From NCBI GenBank assembly GCA_027310975.1, contig DAICZV010000001.1, positions 1 to 42,041 of the forward strand: a stretch of 42,041 bases of DNA. The letters run 5' to 3'. The DNA comes from a bacterium (GTDB lineage: Bacteria > Patescibacteriota > Minisyncoccia > UBA6257 > GWB1-50-10). A program made the translations under genes and the position numbers. Positions 5,510 to 33,511 of this stretch are shown here, piece by piece. The first letter of the stretch is position 1, and every line of letters begins with the position of its first letter. A model generated the notes under the pieces. The model did no database searches. It was not told where the DNA came from and saw only the letters and a program-made list of their open reading frames with translations.

Positions 5510-6061
5510 TTATTTTGGGAGGGTGGCAGCCCGGCTAACTGGCTCGTCTTTGAGCGCTATTGAACCAATTAACATGACTACGCCGGCAATTATGACGGCG
5601 AATCCGAATCCGAGGTGGAAACGGAAGCCGAGCCCAAGCGTGGGCAGGAAGCCCAAAATGAAAGAGACTAGATATATTCCCTGGAAACCACGGGACGTGC
5701 TGATTGCAAAAATCAGCAGAAAGAACACTCCGATGTCTATGGCGTACAAAGATGAACCGGTAACCAGCAAGAGGATGCCGCCGATAGCCCCCAGGACGCC
5801 TCCGTATGCAGAAGCGGTGGAGATGCTGTCTTCGTGTTTTGCATAATGTTCATTACGGTTCACCTTTATATAGGCGCGCATCATCCCCCAAAGCAGCGGG
5901 ACGATGAACCCGGCGACCATGTCGGCAATCGCTGTTTTCTCCGTTACCGTTGCCCCAGTGGCCTTTTGGAAGAAACCCCAGAACGCCATAATGAGAACTA
6001 AGGACAGAGCGGCCCAGGTTAAGGTCTCCCTTGAGAGATATTCCCTCTTGTCCGTTTCCAT
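5510..6061 (-). CDS. Hypothetical polytopic membrane protein (183 aa)
   Basis: Several hydrophobic helices. Strong RBS AAAGGAGGTAGTAG directly before the ATG. No recognisable family. Confidence 0.6.
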   Translation of the reverse strand: METDKREYLSRETLTWAALSLVLIMAFWGFFQKATGATVTEKTAIADMVAGFIVPLLWGMMRAYIKVNRNEHYAKHEDSISTASAYGGVLGAIGGILLLVTGSSLYAIDIGVFFLLIFAISTSRGFQGIYLVSFILGFLPTLGLGFRFHLGFGFAVIIAGVVMLIGSIALKDEPVSRAATLPK

Positions 6062-6132
6062 CTACTACCTCCTTTGTTTTTTGTTTACGTGAAGAACCGA
6101 TAGCGATAATGCCATATCTTTATGGTTTGGTC

Positions 6133-6164
6133 AACGAAAGACCGCTCCGATATTTTCGGAGCGG
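6133..6164 (-). terminator. Terminator downstream of truB
   Basis: Minus strand CCGCTCCG-AAAATAT-CGGAGCGG followed by TCTTTCGTT. Confidence 0.5.
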
Positions 6165-6277
6165 CTTTGAATGCGGGTGCCCCAGGCACGAAGGCCCGGG
6201 GCAGGAGAAAAGAGGGAGGTTGTGGCCTTTTTTCAACTCCCTTAGGCCGGCCACAGGATCTCCTAAGGGATGCGCAA

Positions 6278-6916
6278 CTATTTTACCAAATCGGTTATGG
6301 GGATACAATCGTCTTTCCGAAAATCTCCTACCCGCACCCGTTCCAGCGCGGCAATATAACCGCCGGTGCCGAGCGCTTGGCCGATATCGCGGGCCAGAGA
6401 CCGGATATAAACGCCGGGGCCGGTCACCGCTTTGATTTTCAAGTTAGGCCATTCATACGACATGAGTTTAAGCTCTTTTACTATGACGCGCCGCGGCTTC
6501 AGCTCCGGCGTCTGGCCGCTCCGCGCCGTTTTGTAGGCCCTTCGGCCGGCCACTTTAACGGCGCTGTAGGCCGGCGGCACCTGGTCTATTTCGCCGACGA
6601 AATTCGGCAAGATGTTGGCGATACCCTCTTGGGTGGGCCGCGGCGGATTAGCGACAGGCGTTTTATTCCCCTCCGCATCGTCGGTCGTGCTCCACTCGCC
6701 TAATCTGATCGTGGCAATGTACTCCTTTTCTTTATTTACGATGGAGCTTAGGAGTTTGGTGCTTTGCCCCGTCGCGATGACCAGAACCCCTTCCGCCAAC
6801 GGGTCCAGCGTGCCGGCATGGCCGACGCGCCGCTCCCCCGTCGCCCGGCGGACCCGGTCAACCATGTCGTGCGATGTCGGGCCTTTCGGTTTCCAAACGG
6901 CGAAGATGCGTTCCAT
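6278..6916 (-). CDS. truB: tRNA pseudouridine(55) synthase TruB
   Basis: VGHAGTLDPLAEGVL catalytic-Asp motif. I start the gene at MERIFAVWKPKGPTSHD (6916), because the longer ORF (to 6970) would run through the structured tRNA-Val trailer. Confidence 0.85.
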   Translation of the reverse strand: MERIFAVWKPKGPTSHDMVDRVRRATGERRVGHAGTLDPLAEGVLVIATGQSTKLLSSIVNKEKEYIATIRLGEWSTTDDAEGNKTPVANPPRPTQEGIANILPNFVGEIDQVPPAYSAVKVAGRRAYKTARSGQTPELKPRRVIVKELKLMSYEWPNLKIKAVTGPGVYIRSLARDIGQALGTGGYIAALERVRVGDFRKDDCIPITDLVK

Positions 6917-7022
6917 TGGTGGGCGTTGCTGGGACCCCGGTAGTATCAGCTTCGCTGAACTACGGGGCAAGTCGAACCGTATTAGGGCCTTTGCAATGCT
7001 TGCCCCGTTGCAAATTTTCCTG
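6917..7022 (-). ncRNA. Structured trailer of tRNA-Val (copy A of a tRNA-linked hairpin element)
   Basis: Contains the hairpin CCCCGTAGT-TCAGC-GAA-GCTGA-TACTACCGGGG (6967-6935) and ends GCAACGCCC-ACCA immediately before the truB ATG. Two related copies occur at 33107-33198 and 33271-33395. Confidence 0.5.
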
Positions 7023-7094
7023 TGCGCCTTGGAAGGATCGAACTTCCGACCTTTCCGATGTGAACGGAACGCTCTACCACTGAGCTAAAGGCGC
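7023..7094 (-). tRNA. tRNA-Val (anticodon CAC)
   Basis: Manual cloverleaf: GCGCCTT TA GCTC AGTGGTA GAGC G TTCCG TTCACAT CGGAA AGGTC GGAAG TTCGATC CTTCC AAGGCGC A. 72 nt, CCA not encoded. Confidence 0.9.
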
Positions 7095-7136
7095 GTACGA
7101 ATTTGCAATGGGGTGAATGCAACGCCCCACGCCGTT

Positions 7137-7165
7137 AGAATAGATAAAAATAGGTTTTCTGGCAA
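7137..7165 (-). promoter_or_regulatory. Candidate sigma70-type promoter for the tRNA-Val/truB transcript
   Basis: Minus strand TTGCCA-17 nt-TATTCT. The predicted start is about 7128-7130, right at the 5' strand (GGGCGTTGC) of the terminal helix. Confidence 0.4.
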
Positions 7166-7172
7166 CCAATAC

Positions 7173-7228
7173 AATGTATGGGAGCTTCGCTCCCATACAT
7201 TCTTGTAACGGAGCTGAGCTCCGTTACA
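7173..7228. repeat. Two tandem REP-like perfect palindromes
   Basis: The two palindromes are AATGTATGGGAGC-TTCG-GCTCCCATACATT (7173-7202) and TGTAACGGAGC-TGA-GCTCCGTTACA (7204-7228). They belong to the same word family as the hairpin at 38906-38934. Confidence 0.7.
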
Positions 7229-7242
7229 TTTACATTGCGGGT

Positions 7243-7272
7243 ATAAAAATAGCGGGCCTTATGGGTCCGCTT
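7243..7272 (-). terminator. Terminator after the 73-aa ORF
   Basis: Minus strand AGCGGACCC-ATAA-GGCCCGCT followed by ATTTTTATACC. Confidence 0.55.
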
Positions 7273-7324
7273 GGATTGATTTATTTCGGAGCGGTGTTTT
7301 CGCCCCTTAAATTCTGCCCCTGCT

Positions 7325-8328: not shown

Positions 8329-8400
8329 TACACGACCTTTTTAGCTTTTTCGTTCACCCCGCACATAATGATTCAAAGTGGTGAATGCTAAAGTTCAAGA

Positions 8401-8913
8401 TTATGATTTATTTGAATTTGTTTCATTATGTGCGGAGTTCAAAACGAACAAAACTTTCTTGATGGGAACGGTGAGCATGAAGGCGAGCTGGCCGAGGAGC
8501 ACCTCGCGGGTCGGCAACTGGCCGTAGCGCTTAACGGTTTCAGCATCCATGTACTTCTTCTCCTTCACTTCAAACCCGCCCGAGATATTGAAAAGGTTCT
8601 TCGCGGCGAACGGCTTGCCGAATTTGTGAACCGCGCCGGCCGTTTCCACCATGTCCTTGGGTGAAAAGACGACGCCGGTCTGGCCCGCAAAATTCTTCGG
8701 TTCAAAATCCAGGCCCTGGTCCTTGAGGACGAGCTTCAAGAGGCGCTTTTTCACGACCACCATTTTGCCGCCGATCCCGCGGACCGCCCGCCGGAAAGCG
8801 TTCAAGTCGTTGGCCGAAAGTCCGGTGAAGTCCGTGATGACCACCGTCTCGCTCTTGCCGAGCTCCTGCTGGCCGAGCTCTATCTGCTCTTTTTTCTGCA
8901 ATTTAGTCTTCAT
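8401..8913 (-). CDS. rplJ: 50S ribosomal protein L10
   Basis: 170 aa with an L10-like N-terminus (VVITDFTGLSANDLNAFRRAVR), immediately upstream of rplL. Confidence 0.9.
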   Translation of the reverse strand: MKTKLQKKEQIELGQQELGKSETVVITDFTGLSANDLNAFRRAVRGIGGKMVVVKKRLLKLVLKDQGLDFEPKNFAGQTGVVFSPKDMVETAGAVHKFGKPFAAKNLFNISGGFEVKEKKYMDAETVKRYGQLPTREVLLGQLAFMLTVPIKKVLFVLNSAHNETNSNKS

Positions 8914-10372: not shown

Positions 10373-12322
10373 CTAAATATCAATATTTTTGGCGTAGACC
10401 GCGTTCGCCTGGATGAAGTTCTTGCGCGGCTCCACGAGCTCGCCCATCAATACGTCAAAGAGCTTATCGGCCGCGACAGCATCGTCCACCGTGACCCGCA
10501 GGAAAAGACGCCTTTCAGGGTCCATGGTCGTTTCCCAAAGCTGGGACGGATTCATTTCTCCGAGACCCTTGTAGCGCTGGATGGTGACCCCCTCCCCCAT
10601 CTTTTTCAGCATCTTGTCGCGCTCCGCGTCGGAATAGGCGTAGGCCATTTCTTTGCCTTTGCGGAGCTGGAAGAGCGGCGGCTGGGCGATGTACATATAG
10701 CCGTCCTCCACTATCTTCGGGAAGTAGCGGTAAAAGAGCGTAAGGAGCAAGGTTCGGATGTGGGCGCCGTCCACGTCGGCATCGGTCATGATGACGATCT
10801 TGTGGTAGCGGAGCTTCGTGATGTCAAAGTTCTCGGAGATGGCCGTGCCGAGCGCGATGACGAGAGCGCGGATCTCTTTATTGAGGAGCATTTTGTCTAT
10901 GCGGGACTTCTCCACGTTCATTATCTTGCCGCGCAGGGGCAGGATGGCCTGGAAGCGGCGGTCGCGGCCCTGTTTGGCGCTGCCGCCGGCGCTGTCGCCC
11001 TCAACGATGTAAAGTTCGGACTCCTCGGCCTTGCGCGACGAGCAGTCGGCGAGTTTGCCGGGCAGGGTCAGGCCTTCCAAGGCGCCCTTCCGAAGGACGG
11101 TGTCCTTCGCGGCCTTGGCGGCCTGCCGGGCCTTGGCGGCCAGGAGGTTCTTTTCAATTATCCTTTTGCCTTCGCTACCGTGCTTTTCCAAGAACTCCTT
11201 GAGGGCTTCGGAAACGACCATCTCCACGGCCGGGCGCGCCTCGGGGTTGCCCAGGCGGGCCTTGGTCTGGCCTTCAAATTGCGGTTCGCGGATCTTCACC
11301 GAGACGATGGCCACGATCCCCTCGCGGATATCGTCGCCCGTCAGATTCTCGTCCTTTTCCTTCAGATAGCCCTCGCTCCGCGCATAGTCGTTCAAAGTGC
11401 GGGTAAGAGCGCTCCGGAGGCCCGTAAGATGCATGCCGCCGTCGGGAGTATAAATGTTATTCGCGAACGAAAGCTCCTTCGCCTCTTGGTCGTCCACATA
11501 AGTGATGACCGTTTCCACCTCTATGCCTTCATAGGCCTTATGGACGTAGAAGTTTTCGTTGAGGAGCGTCGTTTCGCCGTCCAAAAGATGGTGGATGAAC
11601 GAATTGAGCCCGCCGTCAAAGTAGAAGCCGTAATAGAACGGCTGCTCTTCACGTTCATCAAGAAACTCTATCCGGATGCCTTTGGTTAAATAGGCCTGCT
11701 GGCGCAAATGGTCCAATATCTTTTTGCGGTCAAATTCAATGGTCTGGAATATCTCCGCGTCCGGCTGGAAGATTATCTTCGTTCCGGTCGTGTCGGATTT
11801 GGCGATTTTTTTGACGTTGTACTGGGGCTTGCCGCGCTTGTATTCCTGAACGTAGAGTCCGCCATCTTTGTTAACCTCCGCCTTCATCCAGGTGGAGAGA
11901 GCGTTCACGACGGAAACGCCCACGCCGTGCAAGCCGCCTGAGACCTTGTACGATTCGCCGCCGAACTTGCCGCCTGCGTGGAGCGTGCAGAGCGCCGTTT
12001 CCAGAGCCGACTTCTTCGTCTGCGGATGGATATCAACCGGAATGCCGCGGCCGTCGTCCGTGACCGCCACCTTGTTGTCCTTGAGGAGTTCTACTTTGAT
12101 GTTCTTGGCGAAGCCGGCCATCGCCTCGTCAATGGAGTTGTCCACAATCTCCCAGACCAGGTGGTGCAGTCCGTCCACGCCTGTGGAGCCGATGTACATA
12201 CCCGGCCGCTTCCGGACCGGTTCCAAGCCCTCCAAAACGTATATGTCCTTGGCGCTGTAAGATGAGCTGCCCTGGGTAATGCTATTCTTCTCTTCTTTTT
12301 TGTCTTTTGGCATATGAGGCAC
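10373..12322 (-). CDS. gyrB: DNA gyrase subunit B
   Basis: GHKL ATPase motifs (GLHHLVWEIVDNSIDEA), the Toprim EGDSAGG motif, and the C-terminal QRYKGLGEM. An alternative ATG start lies 9 nt downstream (12313). Confidence 0.95.
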   Translation of the reverse strand: MPHMPKDKKEEKNSITQGSSSYSAKDIYVLEGLEPVRKRPGMYIGSTGVDGLHHLVWEIVDNSIDEAMAGFAKNIKVELLKDNKVAVTDDGRGIPVDIHPQTKKSALETALCTLHAGGKFGGESYKVSGGLHGVGVSVVNALSTWMKAEVNKDGGLYVQEYKRGKPQYNVKKIAKSDTTGTKIIFQPDAEIFQTIEFDRKKILDHLRQQAYLTKGIRIEFLDEREEQPFYYGFYFDGGLNSFIHHLLDGETTLLNENFYVHKAYEGIEVETVITYVDDQEAKELSFANNIYTPDGGMHLTGLRSALTRTLNDYARSEGYLKEKDENLTGDDIREGIVAIVSVKIREPQFEGQTKARLGNPEARPAVEMVVSEALKEFLEKHGSEGKRIIEKNLLAAKARQAAKAAKDTVLRKGALEGLTLPGKLADCSSRKAEESELYIVEGDSAGGSAKQGRDRRFQAILPLRGKIMNVEKSRIDKMLLNKEIRALVIALGTAISENFDITKLRYHKIVIMTDADVDGAHIRTLLLTLFYRYFPKIVEDGYMYIAQPPLFQLRKGKEMAYAYSDAERDKMLKKMGEGVTIQRYKGLGEMNPSQLWETTMDPERRLFLRVTVDDAVAADKLFDVLMGELVEPRKNFIQANAVYAKNIDI

Positions 12323-12390: not shown

Positions 12391-12654
12391 CTAAACCCCG
12401 AAAAGGCGGCCTAAAATCTGGTCTTTTGGCACTTTATACGAGGCCGAGCGGGATATGGTTCCCCGCAGGTCGTAGAGGCCGTTTTGAACCCCTGCCACCT
12501 TCTTGACGATGAACTTGTCCCCGCCTGCGGGGTCTTTAAAGACGGCGTAATCCCCCGCCTGAGGCGCGCAAAGGCCGGTCGCCCAATAAGTGCGACCGGG
12601 GATTAGCTCTGGCCATAAACTTTCCCCGGATATTTTCACACGGAAAATAATCAT
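12391..12654 (-). CDS. sodX: S26-family peptidase, probable NiSOD maturation protease SodX
   Basis: 87 aa minimal signal-peptidase fold: SGESLWPEL (Ser motif, compare GDSMxP) and FIVKKVAGV (Lys motif). It lies directly downstream of sodN. Confidence 0.65.
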   Translation of the reverse strand: MIIFRVKISGESLWPELIPGRTYWATGLCAPQAGDYAVFKDPAGGDKFIVKKVAGVQNGLYDLRGTISRSASYKVPKDQILGRLFGV

Positions 12655-12658
12655 GGAC

Positions 12659-12782
12659 TAATTTTCAATTCTCAATTTTGCAATTTTCAATCAATGTTCA
12701 ATTTTCAATTACCAAACACGTTGTTTGAAAAATTAATTCATTGAAAATTCAATGTAAATTGATAATTGTAAATTGAAAATTA
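12659..12782. repeat. About 125-bp AT-rich imperfect palindrome built from CAATTTT/AAAATTG heptamer words
   Basis: Fills the whole sodN-sodX spacer. The left arm is taattttcaattctcaattttgcaattttcaat... and the right arm is its imperfect reverse complement. The centre is CAAACA-CGT-TGTTTG at about 12720. Confidence 0.8.
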
Positions 12783-13253
12783 ATACAACTTATCCGTTAT
12801 CTCCTTGTACGCGTTATAGCGCGCCGGGTCGCCTTTCACTTCGTAAAAGACCTTGGCAATCTCGTCCACGGCGCCGCAGAGCGCGGCGGCGTCCTCTTTG
12901 CTGATATTCTGCTTGTCTTTGGAGCAGAGCTTCGCCGCCTTCCAGAACATCTCGTGCAGGTTCGGGTATTTCTCCAAATGCTCCGGCTTGAAGAAGTCGG
13001 ACCAGAGGATATAGAGCTCTTTCTTGCAGATTTGGGCGTGCTCCTCCTTGACCGCCACGCGGCGGGAAACGCTTTGGATATAAAGCGAGGCCGCGGCGGC
13101 ATCGTTCCAGTCCTTCGGCGGATGGGTGTCCTCTATCTGGTCCACCATTCTTGCGACTGTTTTCGCCGCGATCTTCGCCGGCACGGGCTCGTATATTCCG
13201 CAGGGCACGTCGCAGTGCGCCTCCGCGGCGATCAAAGGGATTAAGTGTTTCAT
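12780..13253 (-). CDS. sodN: Nickel-dependent superoxide dismutase (NiSOD) precursor
   Basis: A short propeptide MKHLIPLIAAEA is followed by the nickel-hook HCDVPCGIY (canonical HCDLPCGVY). Start set at 13253 rather than 13289. Confidence 0.85.
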   Translation of the reverse strand: MKHLIPLIAAEAHCDVPCGIYEPVPAKIAAKTVARMVDQIEDTHPPKDWNDAAAASLYIQSVSRRVAVKEEHAQICKKELYILWSDFFKPEHLEKYPNLHEMFWKAAKLCSKDKQNISKEDAAALCGAVDEIAKVFYEVKGDPARYNAYKEITDKLY

Positions 13254-29814: not shown

Positions 29815-29835
29815 TACTTGTATTGTAGCAAATTG

Positions 29836-29918
29836 TGCCCAGGAGAGGACTCGAACCTCCATGCCTTGCGGCGCTATCACCTCAAGATAGTGCGTGTACC
29901 AAGTTTCGCCACCTGGGC
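29836..29918 (-). tRNA. tRNA-Leu (anticodon GAG)
   Basis: Manual fold: GCCCAGG TG GCGAAACTTGGTACACGC A CTATC TTGAGGT GATAG CGCCGCAAGGCAT GGAGG TTCGAGT CCTCT CCTGGGC A. 83 nt with a long variable arm, no encoded CCA. Confidence 0.9.
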
Positions 29919-29922
29919 ATTT

Positions 29923-30585
29923 TTATAGCGCCTTCCCGATGCTTTTAAGAACTTTTTCTATTTTTGTCCGCTTTCTGGAAAGGCAAACTACGCCATCATC
30001 ATAATATAACTTAGGCAATAACTTCAAGGAATCCGCTTTCGCGTATTTTAGCTGGTATACAGAATCGTTGATGCTTTTAGTGATATGGCCGCTTATGCCC
30101 AGGTGCTTCTTTATTTTGGATCGTAGCCATTCAATGTGCATCTTGCTGGCCGAATCAAAACATGTATAGAACATAAAGCTGGAGCGCCAGCGCGGGTCCC
30201 AATAGGAATAAAAGGTGCCGTCACCGTCAAAATGCCCGCGCAAAAAATCAAAGAAATACTTATTTGGTACTGTTATGCCACGAAGCGTTTTTGACTTATG
30301 GGGCGTTAGACCGATGGAGATGAGAAATCTAAAAAACAAGACATCCCCGAATTGCACCCTTAATGCCGGATTAATGCTCCCGACGTTGTGATTACCAATG
30401 CTATTGGTCAGACCCAAGCATCCGATGAAATTATCTATTTGTTCTTTATCTTTTGAAACTAGTGAGATGTGACGCTTGTCGGACGAAAGGCAACCGTCAG
30501 TCGTGATTAGGCCGATCGCGTAAGCGAACTTGGGCGACCACTGGATGGCCACCTTCCCTTGGGGTTTAGTTCCCCTCCTTCCCAT
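29923..30585 (-). CDS. Free-standing two-motif LAGLIDADG homing endonuclease family protein
   Basis: The two motifs are YAIGLITTDGC and FLRGHFDGDGTF. 220 aa, visibly AT-richer than the flanks. Its stop lies 4 nt before the tRNA-Leu 5' end. Confidence 0.8.
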   Translation of the reverse strand: MGRRGTKPQGKVAIQWSPKFAYAIGLITTDGCLSSDKRHISLVSKDKEQIDNFIGCLGLTNSIGNHNVGSINPALRVQFGDVLFFRFLISIGLTPHKSKTLRGITVPNKYFFDFLRGHFDGDGTFYSYWDPRWRSSFMFYTCFDSASKMHIEWLRSKIKKHLGISGHITKSINDSVYQLKYAKADSLKLLPKLYYDDGVVCLSRKRTKIEKVLKSIGKAL

Positions 30586-33106: not shown

Positions 33107-33198
33107 CCTTGAATGAGGAGCGAATGGTGGACCGTACCGGAATCGAACCCCGCAGTATACGCCTGCGGCGTAACTACGGGGCAGGCCGCTGACCTTTG
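33107..33198 (-). ncRNA. tRNA-linked hairpin element, copy B (trailer of tRNA-Ala) with a tRNA 3'-end-like tail
   Basis: Hairpin CCCCGTAGT-TACGC-CGCAG-GCGTA-TACTGCGGGG (33181-33148), then GGTTCGATTCCGGTACGGTCCACCA (T-loop, acceptor-like 3' strand and an encoded CCA). Confidence 0.5.
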
Positions 33199-33270
33199 TG
33201 GACCCGAGGAGAATTGGACTCCTGACCTCCGCTTTGCAAAAGCGGCGTTCTACCACTGAACTACGGGCCC
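33199..33270 (-). tRNA. tRNA-Ala (anticodon TGC) with a non-canonical T-loop
   Basis: GGGCCCG TA GTTC AGTGGTA GAAC G CCGCT TTTGCAA AGCGG AGGTC AGGAG TCCAATT CTCCT CGGGTCC A. The G3:U70 identity pair is present. The T-loop reads UCCAAUU (C at position 55). Confidence 0.85.
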
Positions 33271-33395
33271 AACTATTGTGGGCGTGGAAGGAACCCCGGT
33301 AGTATCCGCCTACGGCGGAACTACGGGGCAAGTCGGACCAGCGATCTCTGTTTTACCGTGCCCCGCACTAAAATTGCGCCTCTGTCATTGATTTG
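33271..33395 (-). ncRNA. tRNA-linked hairpin element, copy C (spacer between tRNA-Ile and tRNA-Ala)
   Basis: GCGCAATTTTAGTGCGGGG is complementary to the tRNA-Ile leader. The hairpin is CCCCGTAGT-TCCGCC-GTA-GGCGGA-TACTACCGGGG (33328-33294), and the tail is ...ACGCCCACAA. Confidence 0.5.
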
Positions 33396-33467
33396 TGCGC
33401 ATGGTAGGAATCGAACCTACGGCCTCGTTCTTATCAGGAACGCGTTCTACCACTGAACTACATGCGC
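33396..33467 (-). tRNA. tRNA-Ile (anticodon GAT)
   Basis: GCGCATG TA GTTC AGTGGTA GAAC G CGTTC CTGATAA GAACG AGGCC GTAGG TTCGATT CCTAC CATGCGC A. 72 nt, no encoded CCA. Confidence 0.9.
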
Positions 33468-33511
33468 AATTTTCAGTGCGGGGTCAGGCAGCGTTCTACC
33501 GCCTTAAACAG

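What the first reader, a model, noticed from the sequence alone, without database searches (positions are those of the whole stretch)
6917..7130. tRNA-Val is enclosed by a leader/trailer stem and an outer 9-bp helix that ends in ACCA just before the truB ATG
All on the minus strand. CCCCATTGCAAATT (7113-7100) lies 5 nt before tRNA-Val. It pairs with AATTTGCAACGGGG (7016-7003), which lies 6 nt after the tRNA (13 of 14 positions). Outside that stem, GGGCGTTGC (7127-7119) is perfectly complementary to GCAACGCCC (6929-6921). That strand is followed by ACCA and then directly by the truB start codon. The candidate promoter TTGCCA-17-TATTCT places the transcription start within about 3 nt of the outer helix. 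The trailer CGGGG can alternatively pair with the downstream CTTGCCCCG (ACGGGGCAAG at 7008-6999 with CTTGCCCCGT at 6971-6962). That competes with the conserved hairpin, so a switch or an ordered processing pathway is conceivable. truB has no visible SD and sits right at the 3' edge of this structure.
Basis: seen in the sequence. Interest (0 to 1): 0.65.

Follow-up and report, generated by a model that had tools for sequence, protein, structure and literature searches.

The report
Broken tRNA-Val gene with nested replacement
The helices around tRNA-Val are the remains of the lineage's original tRNA-Val gene, split by inserted DNA that carries a different, intact tRNA-Val and a small palindromic repeat found across Patescibacteria (candidate phyla radiation, CPR); no relative shows them as a conserved RNA-processing device.

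Summary
Their origin is different from what was proposed. In the closest relatives (TruB 71-84% identical), an intact tRNA-Val(CAC) that starts GGGCGTT and ends AACGCCCA sits between the same promoter and the truB ATG. The window's outer 9-bp helix is that gene's acceptor stem. Other pieces of the old gene survive in order, but its D arm is lost.

Inside the old gene lies a different tRNA-Val(CAC). Other Patescibacteria carry this allele as an ordinary gene after rplL. A 37-nt palindrome, CTTG-CCCCGTAGTT-stem-ATACTACCGGGG, splits the old T loop.

That palindrome has three copies in the window, each 3' of a tRNA. It matched 56 loci in species genomes, nearly all Patescibacteria, and its inner stem covaries. 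It occurs in either orientation relative to genes, in several copies per genome, and in frame inside IleRS-like and ClpB-like genes. Broken tRNA or 5S genes enclosing an intact copy recur in other genomes.

Best reading: scars of REP-like mobile DNA plus gene replacement. A selected switch or ordered processing pathway is not supported. Interest is moderate to high because of the repeat family, not the proposed switch.

The parts
7137..7165 (-). Promoter-like site TTGCCA-17-TATTCT. It is the promoter of the ancestral tRNA-Val/truB unit.
   Evidence: Found by the consensus scan. The same sequence and spacing occur upstream of the intact tRNA-Val in L001, L005, L006 and L007.
7121..7127 (-). GGGCGTT, nt 1-7 (5' acceptor strand) of the ancestral tRNA-Val(CAC). 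It forms the 5' strand of the outer helix.
   Evidence: Identical to nt 1-7 of the tRNA-Val of L001, L002, L005, L006 and L007, at the same distance from the promoter.
7113..7122 (-). TTGCATTCAC, ancestral nt 27-36 (anticodon stem 5' strand and loop up to C36). It is fused directly to nt 1-7, so the D arm (nt 8-26) is missing.
   Evidence: 10 of 10 identical to the relatives' tRNA. The deletion lies between two CGTT repeats (nt 4-7 and nt 25-28); this mechanism is my inference. ARAGORN finds no tRNA in the reassembled outer pieces.
7100..7113 (-). Leader arm CCCCATTGCAAATT. It contains ATTGCAAA (7109-7102), which equals ancestral nt 37-44, preceded by an extra CCC.
   Evidence: TTGCAA is its own reverse complement, so repeated copies of the old anticodon-stem strand pair with each other.
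7023..7094 (-). Intact inner tRNA-Val(CAC), GCGCCTT...AAGGCGCA, with no encoded CCA. This is the functional gene.
   Evidence: ARAGORN; Rfam tRNA model, 70 bits. It is about 78% identical to the ancestral allele. The same anticodon and T arms (exact 39-nt match) with the same acceptor ends, identical or differing by one base over the whole tRNA, occur as an ordinary gene after rplL in L068-L071.
7003..7016 (-). Trailer arm AATTTGCAACGGGG.
   Evidence: The 3' flank CAGGAAAATTTG resembles CCGGAAAATTGA, which follows the same tRNA allele in L070.
6989..6998 (-). CATTGCAAAG, ancestral nt 36-45 (a second copy of the anticodon-stem 3' strand).
   Evidence: 10 of 10 identical to the relatives' tRNA.
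6972..6978 (-). GGTTCGA, ancestral nt 52-58 (first part of the T loop).
   Evidence: The relatives read GCTGGTTCGA|TCCCAGC at this point.
6935..6971 (-). A 37-nt palindromic element, CTTG-CCCCGTAGTT-CAGC-GAA-GCTG-ATACTACCGGGG, inserted between T-loop nt 58 and 59 of the ancestral gene with no target duplication.
   Evidence: Pattern search gave 3 matches against 0 expected. Covariance model R1 scores it 55.5 bits, E = 5e-12. The intact T loop of L006 serves as the empty site.
6920..6934 (-). TCCCAGCAACGCCCA, ancestral nt 59-73 (T-stem 3' strand, acceptor 3' strand and discriminator A). It forms the 3' strand of the outer helix.
   Evidence: 15 of 15 identical to the relatives' tRNA, and next to the truB ATG as in L006.
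6278..6919 (-). CCA followed by truB (ATG at 6916). truB is co-transcribed with the tRNA and has no SD, as in relatives.
   Evidence: ORF list. TruB homologs carry PF01509 and PF16198. Upstream contexts in relatives are shown.
33294..33332 (-). Second copy of the palindromic element (CTTG plus hairpin), 3' of tRNA-Ile, preceded by GCTGGTCCGA and followed by TTCCTTCCACGCCCA (tRNA-Val-like 3' pieces).
   Evidence: R1 scores it 63 bits.
33148..33185 (-). Third copy (CCTG plus hairpin), 3' of tRNA-Ala. It lies inside a tRNA 3' fragment: AGGTCAGCGG, then the element, then TTCGATTCCGGTACGGTCCACCA (33147-33125).
   Evidence: R1 scores it 56.7 bits.
33361..33483 (-). Leader/trailer palindrome CCCCGCACTGAAAATTGCGC (33483-33464) and GCGCAATTTTAGTGCGGGG (33379-33361) enclosing tRNA-Ile (33467-33396).
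   Evidence: Sequence and fold. A homologous leader occurs in relative L065.
8356..8438 (-). Further CCCC...GGGG-type palindrome: CTCCGCACATAATGA...TCATTATGTGCGGGGTGAA. One arm encodes the last residues of rplJ.
   Evidence: Inverted repeat I4 and sequence. The end GTGCGGGGTGAA also occurs in L009 (three times) and L040.

Best explanation
The 214-nt 'structure' is a wrecked gene. The lineage's original tRNA-Val(CAC) sat between a sigma-70-type promoter and the truB start codon. In this genome it lost its D arm and was split by inserted DNA. The first insert, about 105-110 nt, lies in or next to the anticodon loop. It holds a different, intact tRNA-Val(CAC) between inverted repeats that begin CCCC and end GGGG. 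The second insert, in the T loop, is a 37-nt copy of a REP-like palindromic mobile element (CYTG-CCCCGTAGTT-variable stem-ATACTACYGGGG) that occurs across Patescibacteria. The outer 9-bp helix is the old acceptor stem (7 bp) extended by 2 chance pairs created by the D-arm deletion. The leader/trailer stem is the self-complementary TTGCAA of the old anticodon stem, repeated, plus the CCCC/GGGG ends. The alternative CGGGG/CCCCG helix arises because neighbouring palindromes share those ends. Shown: the orthology of the pieces, the repeat family with its covariation, its multi-copy state, its occurrence inside genes, and the nested layout in other genomes. Inferred: the old promoter still drives one transcript. 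RNase P and RNase Z release the inner tRNA from it. truB is translated from the same transcript, possibly after cleavage at the tRNA-like outer helix, which would leave an almost leaderless mRNA as in relative L006. The enzyme that moves the palindromes (an HUH/RAYT-type transposase is the obvious candidate) and the way the replacement tRNA arrived are not established.
For: Six related loci carry an intact tRNA-Val, GGGCGTTTAGTTCAGTGGTAGAACGTTGCATTCACATTGCAAAGATCGCTGGTTCGATCCCAGCAACGCCCA. In L001 and L004-L007 it lies after the conserved promoter and 3-36 nt before the truB ATG; in L002 it lies elsewhere on the contig. Window segments 7127-7121, 7122-7113, 7109-7102, 6998-6989, 6978-6972 and 6934-6920 are identical to nt 1-7, 27-36, 37-44, 36-45, 52-58 and 59-73 of that gene and lie in the same order. 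The inner tRNA is only about 78% identical to the ancestral allele. The same allele is an ordinary post-rplL tRNA in four other contigs. The flanking genes are 89-94% identical to L001 at the DNA level, but truB is only 81% identical and an extra ORF follows it, so this is a locally variable patch. The hairpin element has 3 copies in the window against 0 expected, scoring 55-63 bits with model R1. It is absent from the relatives' Val loci. It matched 56 loci in species genomes, nearly all Patescibacteria. Its four variable pairs show 75 double changes and the structure is 96% paired, exceeded by 0 of 500 shuffles. It occurs in both orientations relative to genes. Identical copies lie in different contexts of one genome. 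It sits in frame inside IleRS-like and ClpB-like genes as 45 nt. Removing the inserts in silico restores a tRNA-Thr in L037 and a tRNA-Leu in L043, each of which encloses an intact tRNA of the same identity. The same layout surrounds a 5S rRNA gene in L060.
Against: No transposase or other recurrent gene was found next to the elements, so mobility is inferred from distribution only. Apart from T at +1 in 43 of 58 copies, no clear target site emerged. How an intact gene of the same identity ends up nested inside the broken one is unexplained. G-U-compatible changes in the CGGGGYRAG/CTYGCCCCG pairing (L018 and L057) and the recurrence of leader/trailer palindromes around nested tRNAs leave room for an RNA-level role. 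There are no transcript data. The window's closest relative differs by about 10% in DNA, so no intermediate states were seen.
Confidence: 0.8

Rival explanations
1. This is a selected RNA device. The leader/trailer stem and outer helix direct ordered cleavage (for example by RNase III) of a tRNA-Val/truB precursor, and the alternative CGGGG pairing acts as a switch coupling tRNA maturation to truB expression.
For: The fold recovers all helices, z = -5.4. A 19-bp leader/trailer palindrome encloses tRNA-Ile. Palindromes with different sequences enclose nested tRNAs in L019 and L037 and a 5S gene in L060. The b-c pairing tolerates G-U changes.
Against: Both helices are absent at the same junction in six related loci. 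Every paired segment is accounted for by old tRNA stems or by element ends. The same hairpin sits antisense to flanking genes in many loci and in frame inside essential protein genes, where cleavage would be harmful. truB lacks an SD in relatives that have no such structure.
Confidence: 0.08
2. The outer tRNA is a functional interrupted gene. The palindromic inserts are intron-like or intervening sequences removed from the RNA, as in archaeal multi-intron or split tRNAs, and the inner tRNA is an intron-borne gene.
For: Inserts lie in the D, anticodon and T loops. In-silico excision restores good tRNAs in L037 and L043. Leader/trailer complementarity recalls split tRNAs.
Against: In the window the D arm is gone and ARAGORN finds no tRNA after excision. 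No bulge-helix-bulge geometry exists at any junction, by inspection. Outer genes in L063 and L032 are also decayed. An intact copy of the same identity is always present nearby. The 45-nt in-frame copies in protein genes argue that the element is read through rather than removed.
Confidence: 0.04
3. The fragments are attachment-site scars of integrative elements. Tyrosine-integrase elements recombined in the anticodon and T loops, reconstituted or replaced the tRNA, and later lost their interior.
For: By my recollection of Williams 2002 (not checked here), anticodon and T loops are the classic crossover sites. Arrays of repeated tRNA 3' or 5' fragments occur in L008, L009, L032 and L043 and after tRNA-Ala in the window.
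Against: No recurrent gene of any kind, and hence no shared integrase, was found within 2.5 kb of the elements. Integration gives chimeric genes plus displaced fragments on one side, not a complete foreign gene nested between 5' and 3' remnants. The hairpin also occurs in protein genes and intergenic sites unrelated to tRNAs. Its variable, covarying stem does not look like a recombinase core site.
Confidence: 0.08

Closest known systems
GTAG-tagged repetitive extragenic palindromes (REPs/BIMEs), thought to be mobilised by RAYT (HUH tyrosine) transposases (PMC3733652, PMC2817692)
   Same: Both are short stem-loops (here 37-45 nt) containing a GTAG next to a variable stem. Both occur in several copies per genome and in both orientations without a target duplication. 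Both are occasionally found inside ORFs. PMC3733652 lists REPs inside tRNA synthetase and truB genes and REPs nested in small GC palindromes.
   Different: Here the GTAG is paired with CTAC inside a longer, conserved CCCC...GGGG helix. Copy number is low (3 in 42 kb; at least 5 in one MAG). The family is spread across a whole phylum with nearly invariant ends. No RAYT was found or could be sought. The strong link to loops of tRNA and 5S genes, with nested replacement genes, is not a described REP property.
Rickettsia palindromic elements (RPEs), recalled from Ogata et al. 2000 and not read here; their presence in truB is mentioned in PMC3733652
   Same: Both are selfish palindromic repeats in a reduced genome. 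Both are tolerated in frame inside essential protein genes and also occur in RNA genes and spacers.
   Different: RPEs are about 100-150 bp and specific to Rickettsia. There is no sequence relation, and nested gene replacement is not reported for them.
IS200/IS605-derived palindrome-associated elements (PATEs) and MITEs
   Same: All are small and non-autonomous, have hairpin ends and make no target duplication (true of IS200/IS605 derivatives). Cargo can lie between the ends.
   Different: No autonomous parent with matching ends was found. No conserved 4-5-nt target was seen beyond T at +1. MITE-type target duplications are absent.
Archaeal multi-intron and split tRNA genes (bulge-helix-bulge introns), recalled from Randau 2005 and Sugahara/Fujishima 2008-2010 and not read here
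   Same: Interruptions occur in the D, anticodon and T loops, with GC-rich complementary flanks.
   Different: This is a bacterium. There is no bulge-helix-bulge motif, the outer gene is defective here, and an intact copy is always present.
Leader/trailer processing stems of rRNA operons (RNase III substrates)
   Same: Complementary sequences a few nt outside the mature RNA ends would form a 14-20-bp duplex in the precursor.
   Different: The stems are not conserved at the orthologous locus of relatives, and their sequence is explained by inserted inverted repeats.

Membership tests
REP (GTAG-tagged) / RAYT system | Short (20-40 nt) imperfect palindrome forming a stem-loop | tested here: met
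   The core is 30-43 nt. It has 14 pairs and is 96% paired, and the four variable pairs covary.
REP (GTAG-tagged) / RAYT system | GTAG (or CGTC) tetranucleotide tag at one end of the stem-loop | tested here: inconclusive
   GTAG is present directly 5' of the variable stem in all copies. However, it was part of the search pattern, and here it is base-paired within a longer helix.
REP (GTAG-tagged) / RAYT system | High copy number (often more than 100 per genome), mostly intergenic | tested here: inconclusive
   There are 3 copies in 42 kb and at least 5 contigs with copies in one MAG. Whole genomes could not be counted.
REP (GTAG-tagged) / RAYT system | A RAYT gene flanked by REPs (REPtron) in the genome | not testable with these tools
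   No recurrent protein lies within 2.5 kb of the 56 loci.
MITE | Terminal inverted repeats plus a target-site duplication | tested here: not met
   Inverted ends are present, but the filled site (window 6972|6971...6935|6934) compared with the empty site (L006) shows no duplication. The 58 flanks show none either.
IS200/IS605-type derivative (PATE) | Insertion 3' of a conserved tetra- or pentanucleotide, without duplication | tested here: inconclusive
   There is no duplication. Only T at +1 (43 of 58) and a subset with TYRAA flanks were seen.
Archaeal-type tRNA intron / split tRNA | Bulge-helix-bulge motif (3-nt bulge, 4-bp helix, 3-nt bulge) at the exon-intron junctions | tested here: not met
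   By inspection, the unpaired stretches TTCAC and CAAGCAT lie on the same side of the CCCC/GGGG helix. The T-loop insert has no bulges.
Archaeal-type tRNA intron / split tRNA | Removing the inserts gives a complete, foldable tRNA | tested here: not met
   In the window ARAGORN finds nothing because the D arm is missing. The feature is met in L037 and L043 only.
rRNA-like RNase III processing stem | Leader/trailer duplex conserved, with compensatory changes, at the orthologous locus of relatives | tested here: not met
   It is absent from L001, L002 and L004-L007 at the tRNA-Val locus. The Ile locus could not be judged because relatives' contigs end inside or just before the tRNA.
Integrase attachment-site scar at a tRNA gene | Direct repeat of part of the tRNA bounding an island that carries an integrase | tested here: inconclusive
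   tRNA fragments are repeated. No recurrent gene of any kind was found next to the elements, and the layout is nested rather than one-sided.
Known Rfam RNA families | Match to any curated covariance model other than tRNA | tested here: not met
   Only tRNA matched, at gathering score over the window and at E-value up to 10 over 6850-7300. There were no hits at the hairpins in 18 loci.

The most novel reading that the evidence does not exclude
The CCCC...GGGG palindromes may be the ends of a phylum-wide cassette that moves stable-RNA genes. On this reading it lands in the loops of a resident tRNA or 5S rRNA gene, destroys that gene and supplies its own copy of the same identity. That would be a selfish gene-replacement drive for tRNA genes in Patescibacteria. 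The leader/trailer palindrome would serve both as the transposition end and as the RNA processing stem for the cargo.
Probability: 0.2. Interest if true: 0.85.

Novelty: new variant of a known kind. Interest (0 to 1): 0.6.

Why it matters
For this locus, a tempting 'riboswitch-like' fold turns out to be explained by gene history. That is a useful caution when reading helices around tRNAs. More broadly, I found no description of a REP-like palindrome family in Patescibacteria in Rfam or in the six literature searches aimed at it. This family has nearly invariant ends across very distant classes. It prefers the loops of tRNA and 5S genes, is tolerated in frame in essential proteins, and recurs together with broken genes that enclose an intact replacement. 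If these events reflect a mobile cassette, they would show how tRNA alleles are exchanged between lineages with tiny genomes. They would also explain why MAG contigs of these organisms so often break at tRNA genes.

Tried and rejected
1. tRNA-like or tmRNA-like reading of the 3' end '...GCCCACCA'. Rejected because ARAGORN and Rfam find no tmRNA. The ACCA is the old discriminator plus CCA, and the context ACCAATGG also occurs in L005 about 30 nt away from the tRNA end.
2. Bulge-helix-bulge introns. The geometry is not present.
3. Rfam at permissive thresholds gave nothing except tRNA.
4. Phage origin. The hairpin pattern has no match in viral contigs.
5. Search for an associated gene. Clustering all ORFs within 2.5 kb of the 56 hairpins gave no recurrent family.
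6. Ancestral state of the Ile/Ala locus. DprA relatives were fetched, but their contigs end within or just before the tRNA. Only a homologous leader in L065 could be seen.
7. Census of proteins carrying the hairpin-encoded peptide.
8. Six literature searches for CPR tRNA introns, palindromic repeats or the motif itself found no description. The paper on CPR rRNA insertions does not mention tRNAs or hairpins.
9. An early idea that the Ile cassette sits in a local tRNA-Val(GAC) remnant is kept only as a possibility. The leader is shared with relative L065, so that composite is older.

Full report
**Observation.**
- tRNA-Val(CAC) lies at 7094-7023.
- The leader CCCCATTGCAAATT (7113-7100) pairs with the trailer AATTTGCAACGGGG (7016-7003) at 13 of 14 positions.
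- GGGCGTTGC (7127-7119) pairs perfectly with GCAACGCCC (6929-6921). That strand is followed by ACCA and the truB ATG at 6916.
- ACGGGGCAAG (7008-6999) pairs perfectly with CTTGCCCCGT (6971-6962).
- The minimum-free-energy fold of 6917-7130 contains most of the tRNA cloverleaf, the leader/trailer stem, the outer helix, an ACCCC/GGGGU helix and two hairpins. Its z-score is -5.4.
- The promoter-like site TTGCCA-17-TATTCT is at 7165-7137.

**What the relatives show.** TruB homologs place the window in Patescibacteria. I fetched the truB loci of the closest relatives, whose TruB is 71-84% identical.
- Each carries one tRNA-Val(CAC) with the identical sequence GGGCGTTTAGTTCAGTGGTAGAACGTTGCATTCACATTGCAAAGATCGCTGGTTCGATCCCAGCAACGCCCA.
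- In L006 and L007 it follows the same promoter by about 9 nt and ends 3 nt before the truB ATG.
- The window keeps pieces of this gene, in order and without a mismatch: nt 1-7 (7127-7121), nt 27-36 (7122-7113), nt 37-44 (7109-7102), nt 36-45 again (6998-6989), nt 52-58 (6978-6972) and nt 59-73 (6934-6920).

- The outer helix is the old 7-bp acceptor stem. It is lengthened by two pairs because nt 1-7 are now fused to nt 29-30, which happen to pair with T-stem nt 64-65.
- The D arm is gone. The junction lies between two CGTT repeats, which suggests a microhomology deletion (my inference).
- ARAGORN finds no tRNA in the reassembled outer pieces.
- The ACCA is the old discriminator A followed by CCA. 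The context ACCAATGG also precedes the truB ATG in L005, where it lies about 30 nt from the tRNA end.
- truB has no SD in any relative.

**The inner tRNA.** The inner tRNA is about 78% identical to the ancestral allele.
- A metagenome scan with its anticodon and T arms found four contigs (L068-L071). There the same allele, identical or differing by one base, is an ordinary tRNA-Val just after rplL, with no palindromic flanks. In L070 its 3' flank resembles the one in the window. So the inner gene is the normal tRNA-Val of other Patescibacteria lineages at the same syntenic slot.
- The window and L001 are 89-94% identical in DNA across gyrB, rplJ, rplL, mraZ, rsmH and the PBP gene, and their RplL proteins are identical.
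- truB, by contrast, is only 81% identical, and the window has an extra 183-aa ORF after it. The tRNA-Val/truB patch is therefore locally variable.
- L001, L004 and L005 carry a different two-hairpin insert after tRNA nt 10, with a 10-nt duplication. This gene is a hotspot for insertions.

**The 'conserved hairpin'.** The segment that splits the old T loop is CTTG-CCCCGTAGTT-CAGC-GAA-GCTG-ATACTACCGGGG (6971-6935).
- It lies exactly between A58 and T59 of the ancestral gene, with no duplication.
- The pattern occurs three times in the window against 0 expected, each time 3' of a tRNA (Val, Ile, Ala) on the minus strand, with different but complementary inner stems.
- One scan of the species-genome collection gave 56 loci. 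Nearly all are Patescibacteria from many classes: Saccharibacteria, Doudna-, Lloyd-, Berkel-, Kerfeld-, Nealson-, Curtiss- and Komeilibacteria, and Parcubacteria. A few carry other taxonomic labels.
- On an alignment of 46 copies, the four variable pairs show 75 double changes and the helix is 96% paired; 0 of 500 shuffles reach this. The remaining pairs were fixed by the search pattern and carry no information.
- A covariance model finds exactly three strong hits in the window (55-63 bits, minus strand only). It finds none at the relatives' Val loci and a few diverged extra copies in other loci.
- Rfam has no family for it, and viral contigs have no match.

**Is it DNA or RNA that matters?** Several observations point to mobile DNA.
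- Seventeen of the 56 loci lie within 300 nt of a tRNA, on either strand. This seems far more than chance would give, but I did not compute an expected number.
- Relative to flanking ORFs the hairpin is found in both orientations: 16 copies opposite to both neighbours and 10 co-oriented with both.
- One Saccharibacteria MAG has at least five copies of a roughly 110-nt version, some identical, in unrelated contexts.
- In three genomes the element sits inside an IleRS-like gene after the motif HYPF. In another genome it sits inside a ClpB-like gene. Each time it is 45 nt long and in the same open frame.
- Conserved bases extend to CYYG on the 5' side, and T follows the element in 43 of 58 copies.
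- No gene recurs next to the elements.

These are the properties of a small non-autonomous palindromic mobile element. A cis-acting RNA signal would not be expected to show them. The G-U-compatible changes in the neighbouring CGGGGYRAG/CTYGCCCCG pairing mean an RNA role cannot be excluded.

**Nested genes elsewhere.** The window's layout recurs in other genomes.
- In L037 a tRNA-Thr(TGT) is interrupted in its D loop by the hairpin, and after anticodon nt 36 by a CCC...GGG palindrome plus a leader/trailer palindrome enclosing a second, intact tRNA-Thr(TGT). Removing the inserts in silico restores an ARAGORN tRNA.
- L043 behaves the same way for tRNA-Leu(TAA). L032 and L043 have the two Leu alleles in swapped roles.
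- L063 shows the layout for tRNA-Gly, L019 for tRNA-Glu, and L060 for a 5S rRNA gene next to 23S.
- L008, L009, L032 and L043 also carry arrays of tRNA fragments.
- In the window, tRNA-Ile is enclosed by CCCCGCACTGAAAATTGCGC / GCGCAATTTTAGTGCGGGG and followed by tRNA-Val-like 3' pieces split by the hairpin. tRNA-Ala is followed by a tRNA 3' fragment split by the hairpin.
- The Ile leader is homologous in relative L065, so that composite is older than the Val one. Relatives' contigs end at this tRNA.

**How it most likely works.**
- Shown: the helices are inherited tRNA stems and the inverted ends of the inserts.
- Inferred: the old promoter drives one precursor, and RNase P and RNase Z release the inner tRNA, which has no encoded CCA.
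- Inferred: truB is read from the same RNA. In L006, RNase Z cleavage would leave a 3-nt leader. In the window, the acceptor-like outer helix may still allow similar cleavage, which would explain nothing more than the retention of an expression signal.
- Not established: the mobilising enzyme and the route by which a foreign allele became nested.

**Comparison with known systems.** The closest described class is GTAG-tagged REPs mobilised by RAYT transposases. These also occur inside ORFs, including tRNA synthetase and truB genes, and inside small GC palindromes (PMC3733652; PMC2817692). Rickettsia palindromic elements are a functional analogue; this is from my own recollection, plus the mention in PMC3733652. 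Membership in the REP/RAYT class could not be completed, because no RAYT was sought genome-wide and copy number is unknown. MITE, bulge-helix-bulge intron and conserved processing-stem criteria were tested and not met.

**Verdict.** The proposed switch or ordered-processing reading is not supported at this locus. What is present is a broken ancestral tRNA gene with a nested replacement and a copy of an apparently undescribed REP-like family from the candidate phyla radiation.

Noticed in passing
L017:1972-2012, L022:1989-2029, L047:5375-5415, L035:6017-6057: The palindromic element sits in frame (45 nt, 15 codons, translated roughly DPSSISSQxSDNYGAG) inside IleRS-like genes of three genomes, after the motif HYPF, and inside a ClpB-like gene of a fourth.
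   Followed up: partly
L060:3900-4200: An intact 5S rRNA gene next to 23S is nested between fragments of another 5S copy. The junctions are formed by CCCCGTTAAA / TTTAACGGGG and by the hairpin element.
   Followed up: partly
window 29923-30585 (minus strand), next to tRNA-Leu at 29835-29918: A 220-aa ORF with a LAGLIDADG_3 match (E = 1.3e-7) ends 5 nt before tRNA-Leu(GAG). This may be a free-standing homing endonuclease beside a tRNA gene. That tRNA has no palindromic element.
   Followed up: no
window 33199-33467: tRNA-Ile(GAT) and tRNA-Ala(TGC), the usual rRNA-spacer pair, lie here with no rRNA gene anywhere in the 42-kb window.
   Followed up: no
window 8356-8438: A palindrome of the same CCCC...GGGG style (CTCCGCACATAATGA...TCATTATGTGCGGGGTGAA) overlaps the 3' end of rplJ. 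One arm encodes the last residues of ribosomal protein L10.
   Followed up: partly
window 5510-6916, compared with L001:3001-4153: truB is only 81% identical in DNA to L001, while neighbouring genes are 89-94% identical. A 183-aa ORF with no Pfam match (5510-6061) is present only in the window. This looks like a locally exchanged patch that begins at the tRNA gene.
   Followed up: partly
L001:2836-2894, L005:347-417 (also L004): A different insert made of two hairpins (GGCCGAC..GTCGGCC and TCCCGAC..GTCGGGA) lies after nt 10 of the same tRNA-Val. The first 10 nt of the tRNA are duplicated, so the gene stays intact.
   Followed up: partly
window 12650-12790: An AT-rich block of TTGAAAAT/ATTTTCAA inverted and direct repeats lies upstream of gyrB. 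The string AATTGAAAATTAGT also flanks a hairpin element in the Saccharibacteria locus L018, and a 29-nt match occurs in L001.
   Followed up: no
L001:1-657, compared with window 10373-12322: gyrB of the close relative L001 is annotated as 1078 aa with an intein-splicing domain. The window's gyrB is 649 aa and has no intein.
   Followed up: no
L064, L065, L066 (contig ends): Contigs of three relatives stop at the position corresponding to the tRNA-Ile locus: L065 inside the tRNA, L064 and L066 within about 90 nt of the gene next to it. This fits assembly breaks at repeated tRNA and palindrome sequence.
   Followed up: no
L031, L050, L053 (Terriglobia MAG): Three copies of a longer nested palindrome share the CCCCGTAGTT...ATACTACCGGGG ends but score poorly with the covariance model (23-25 bits). 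They may be an unrelated or very distant element.
   Followed up: no
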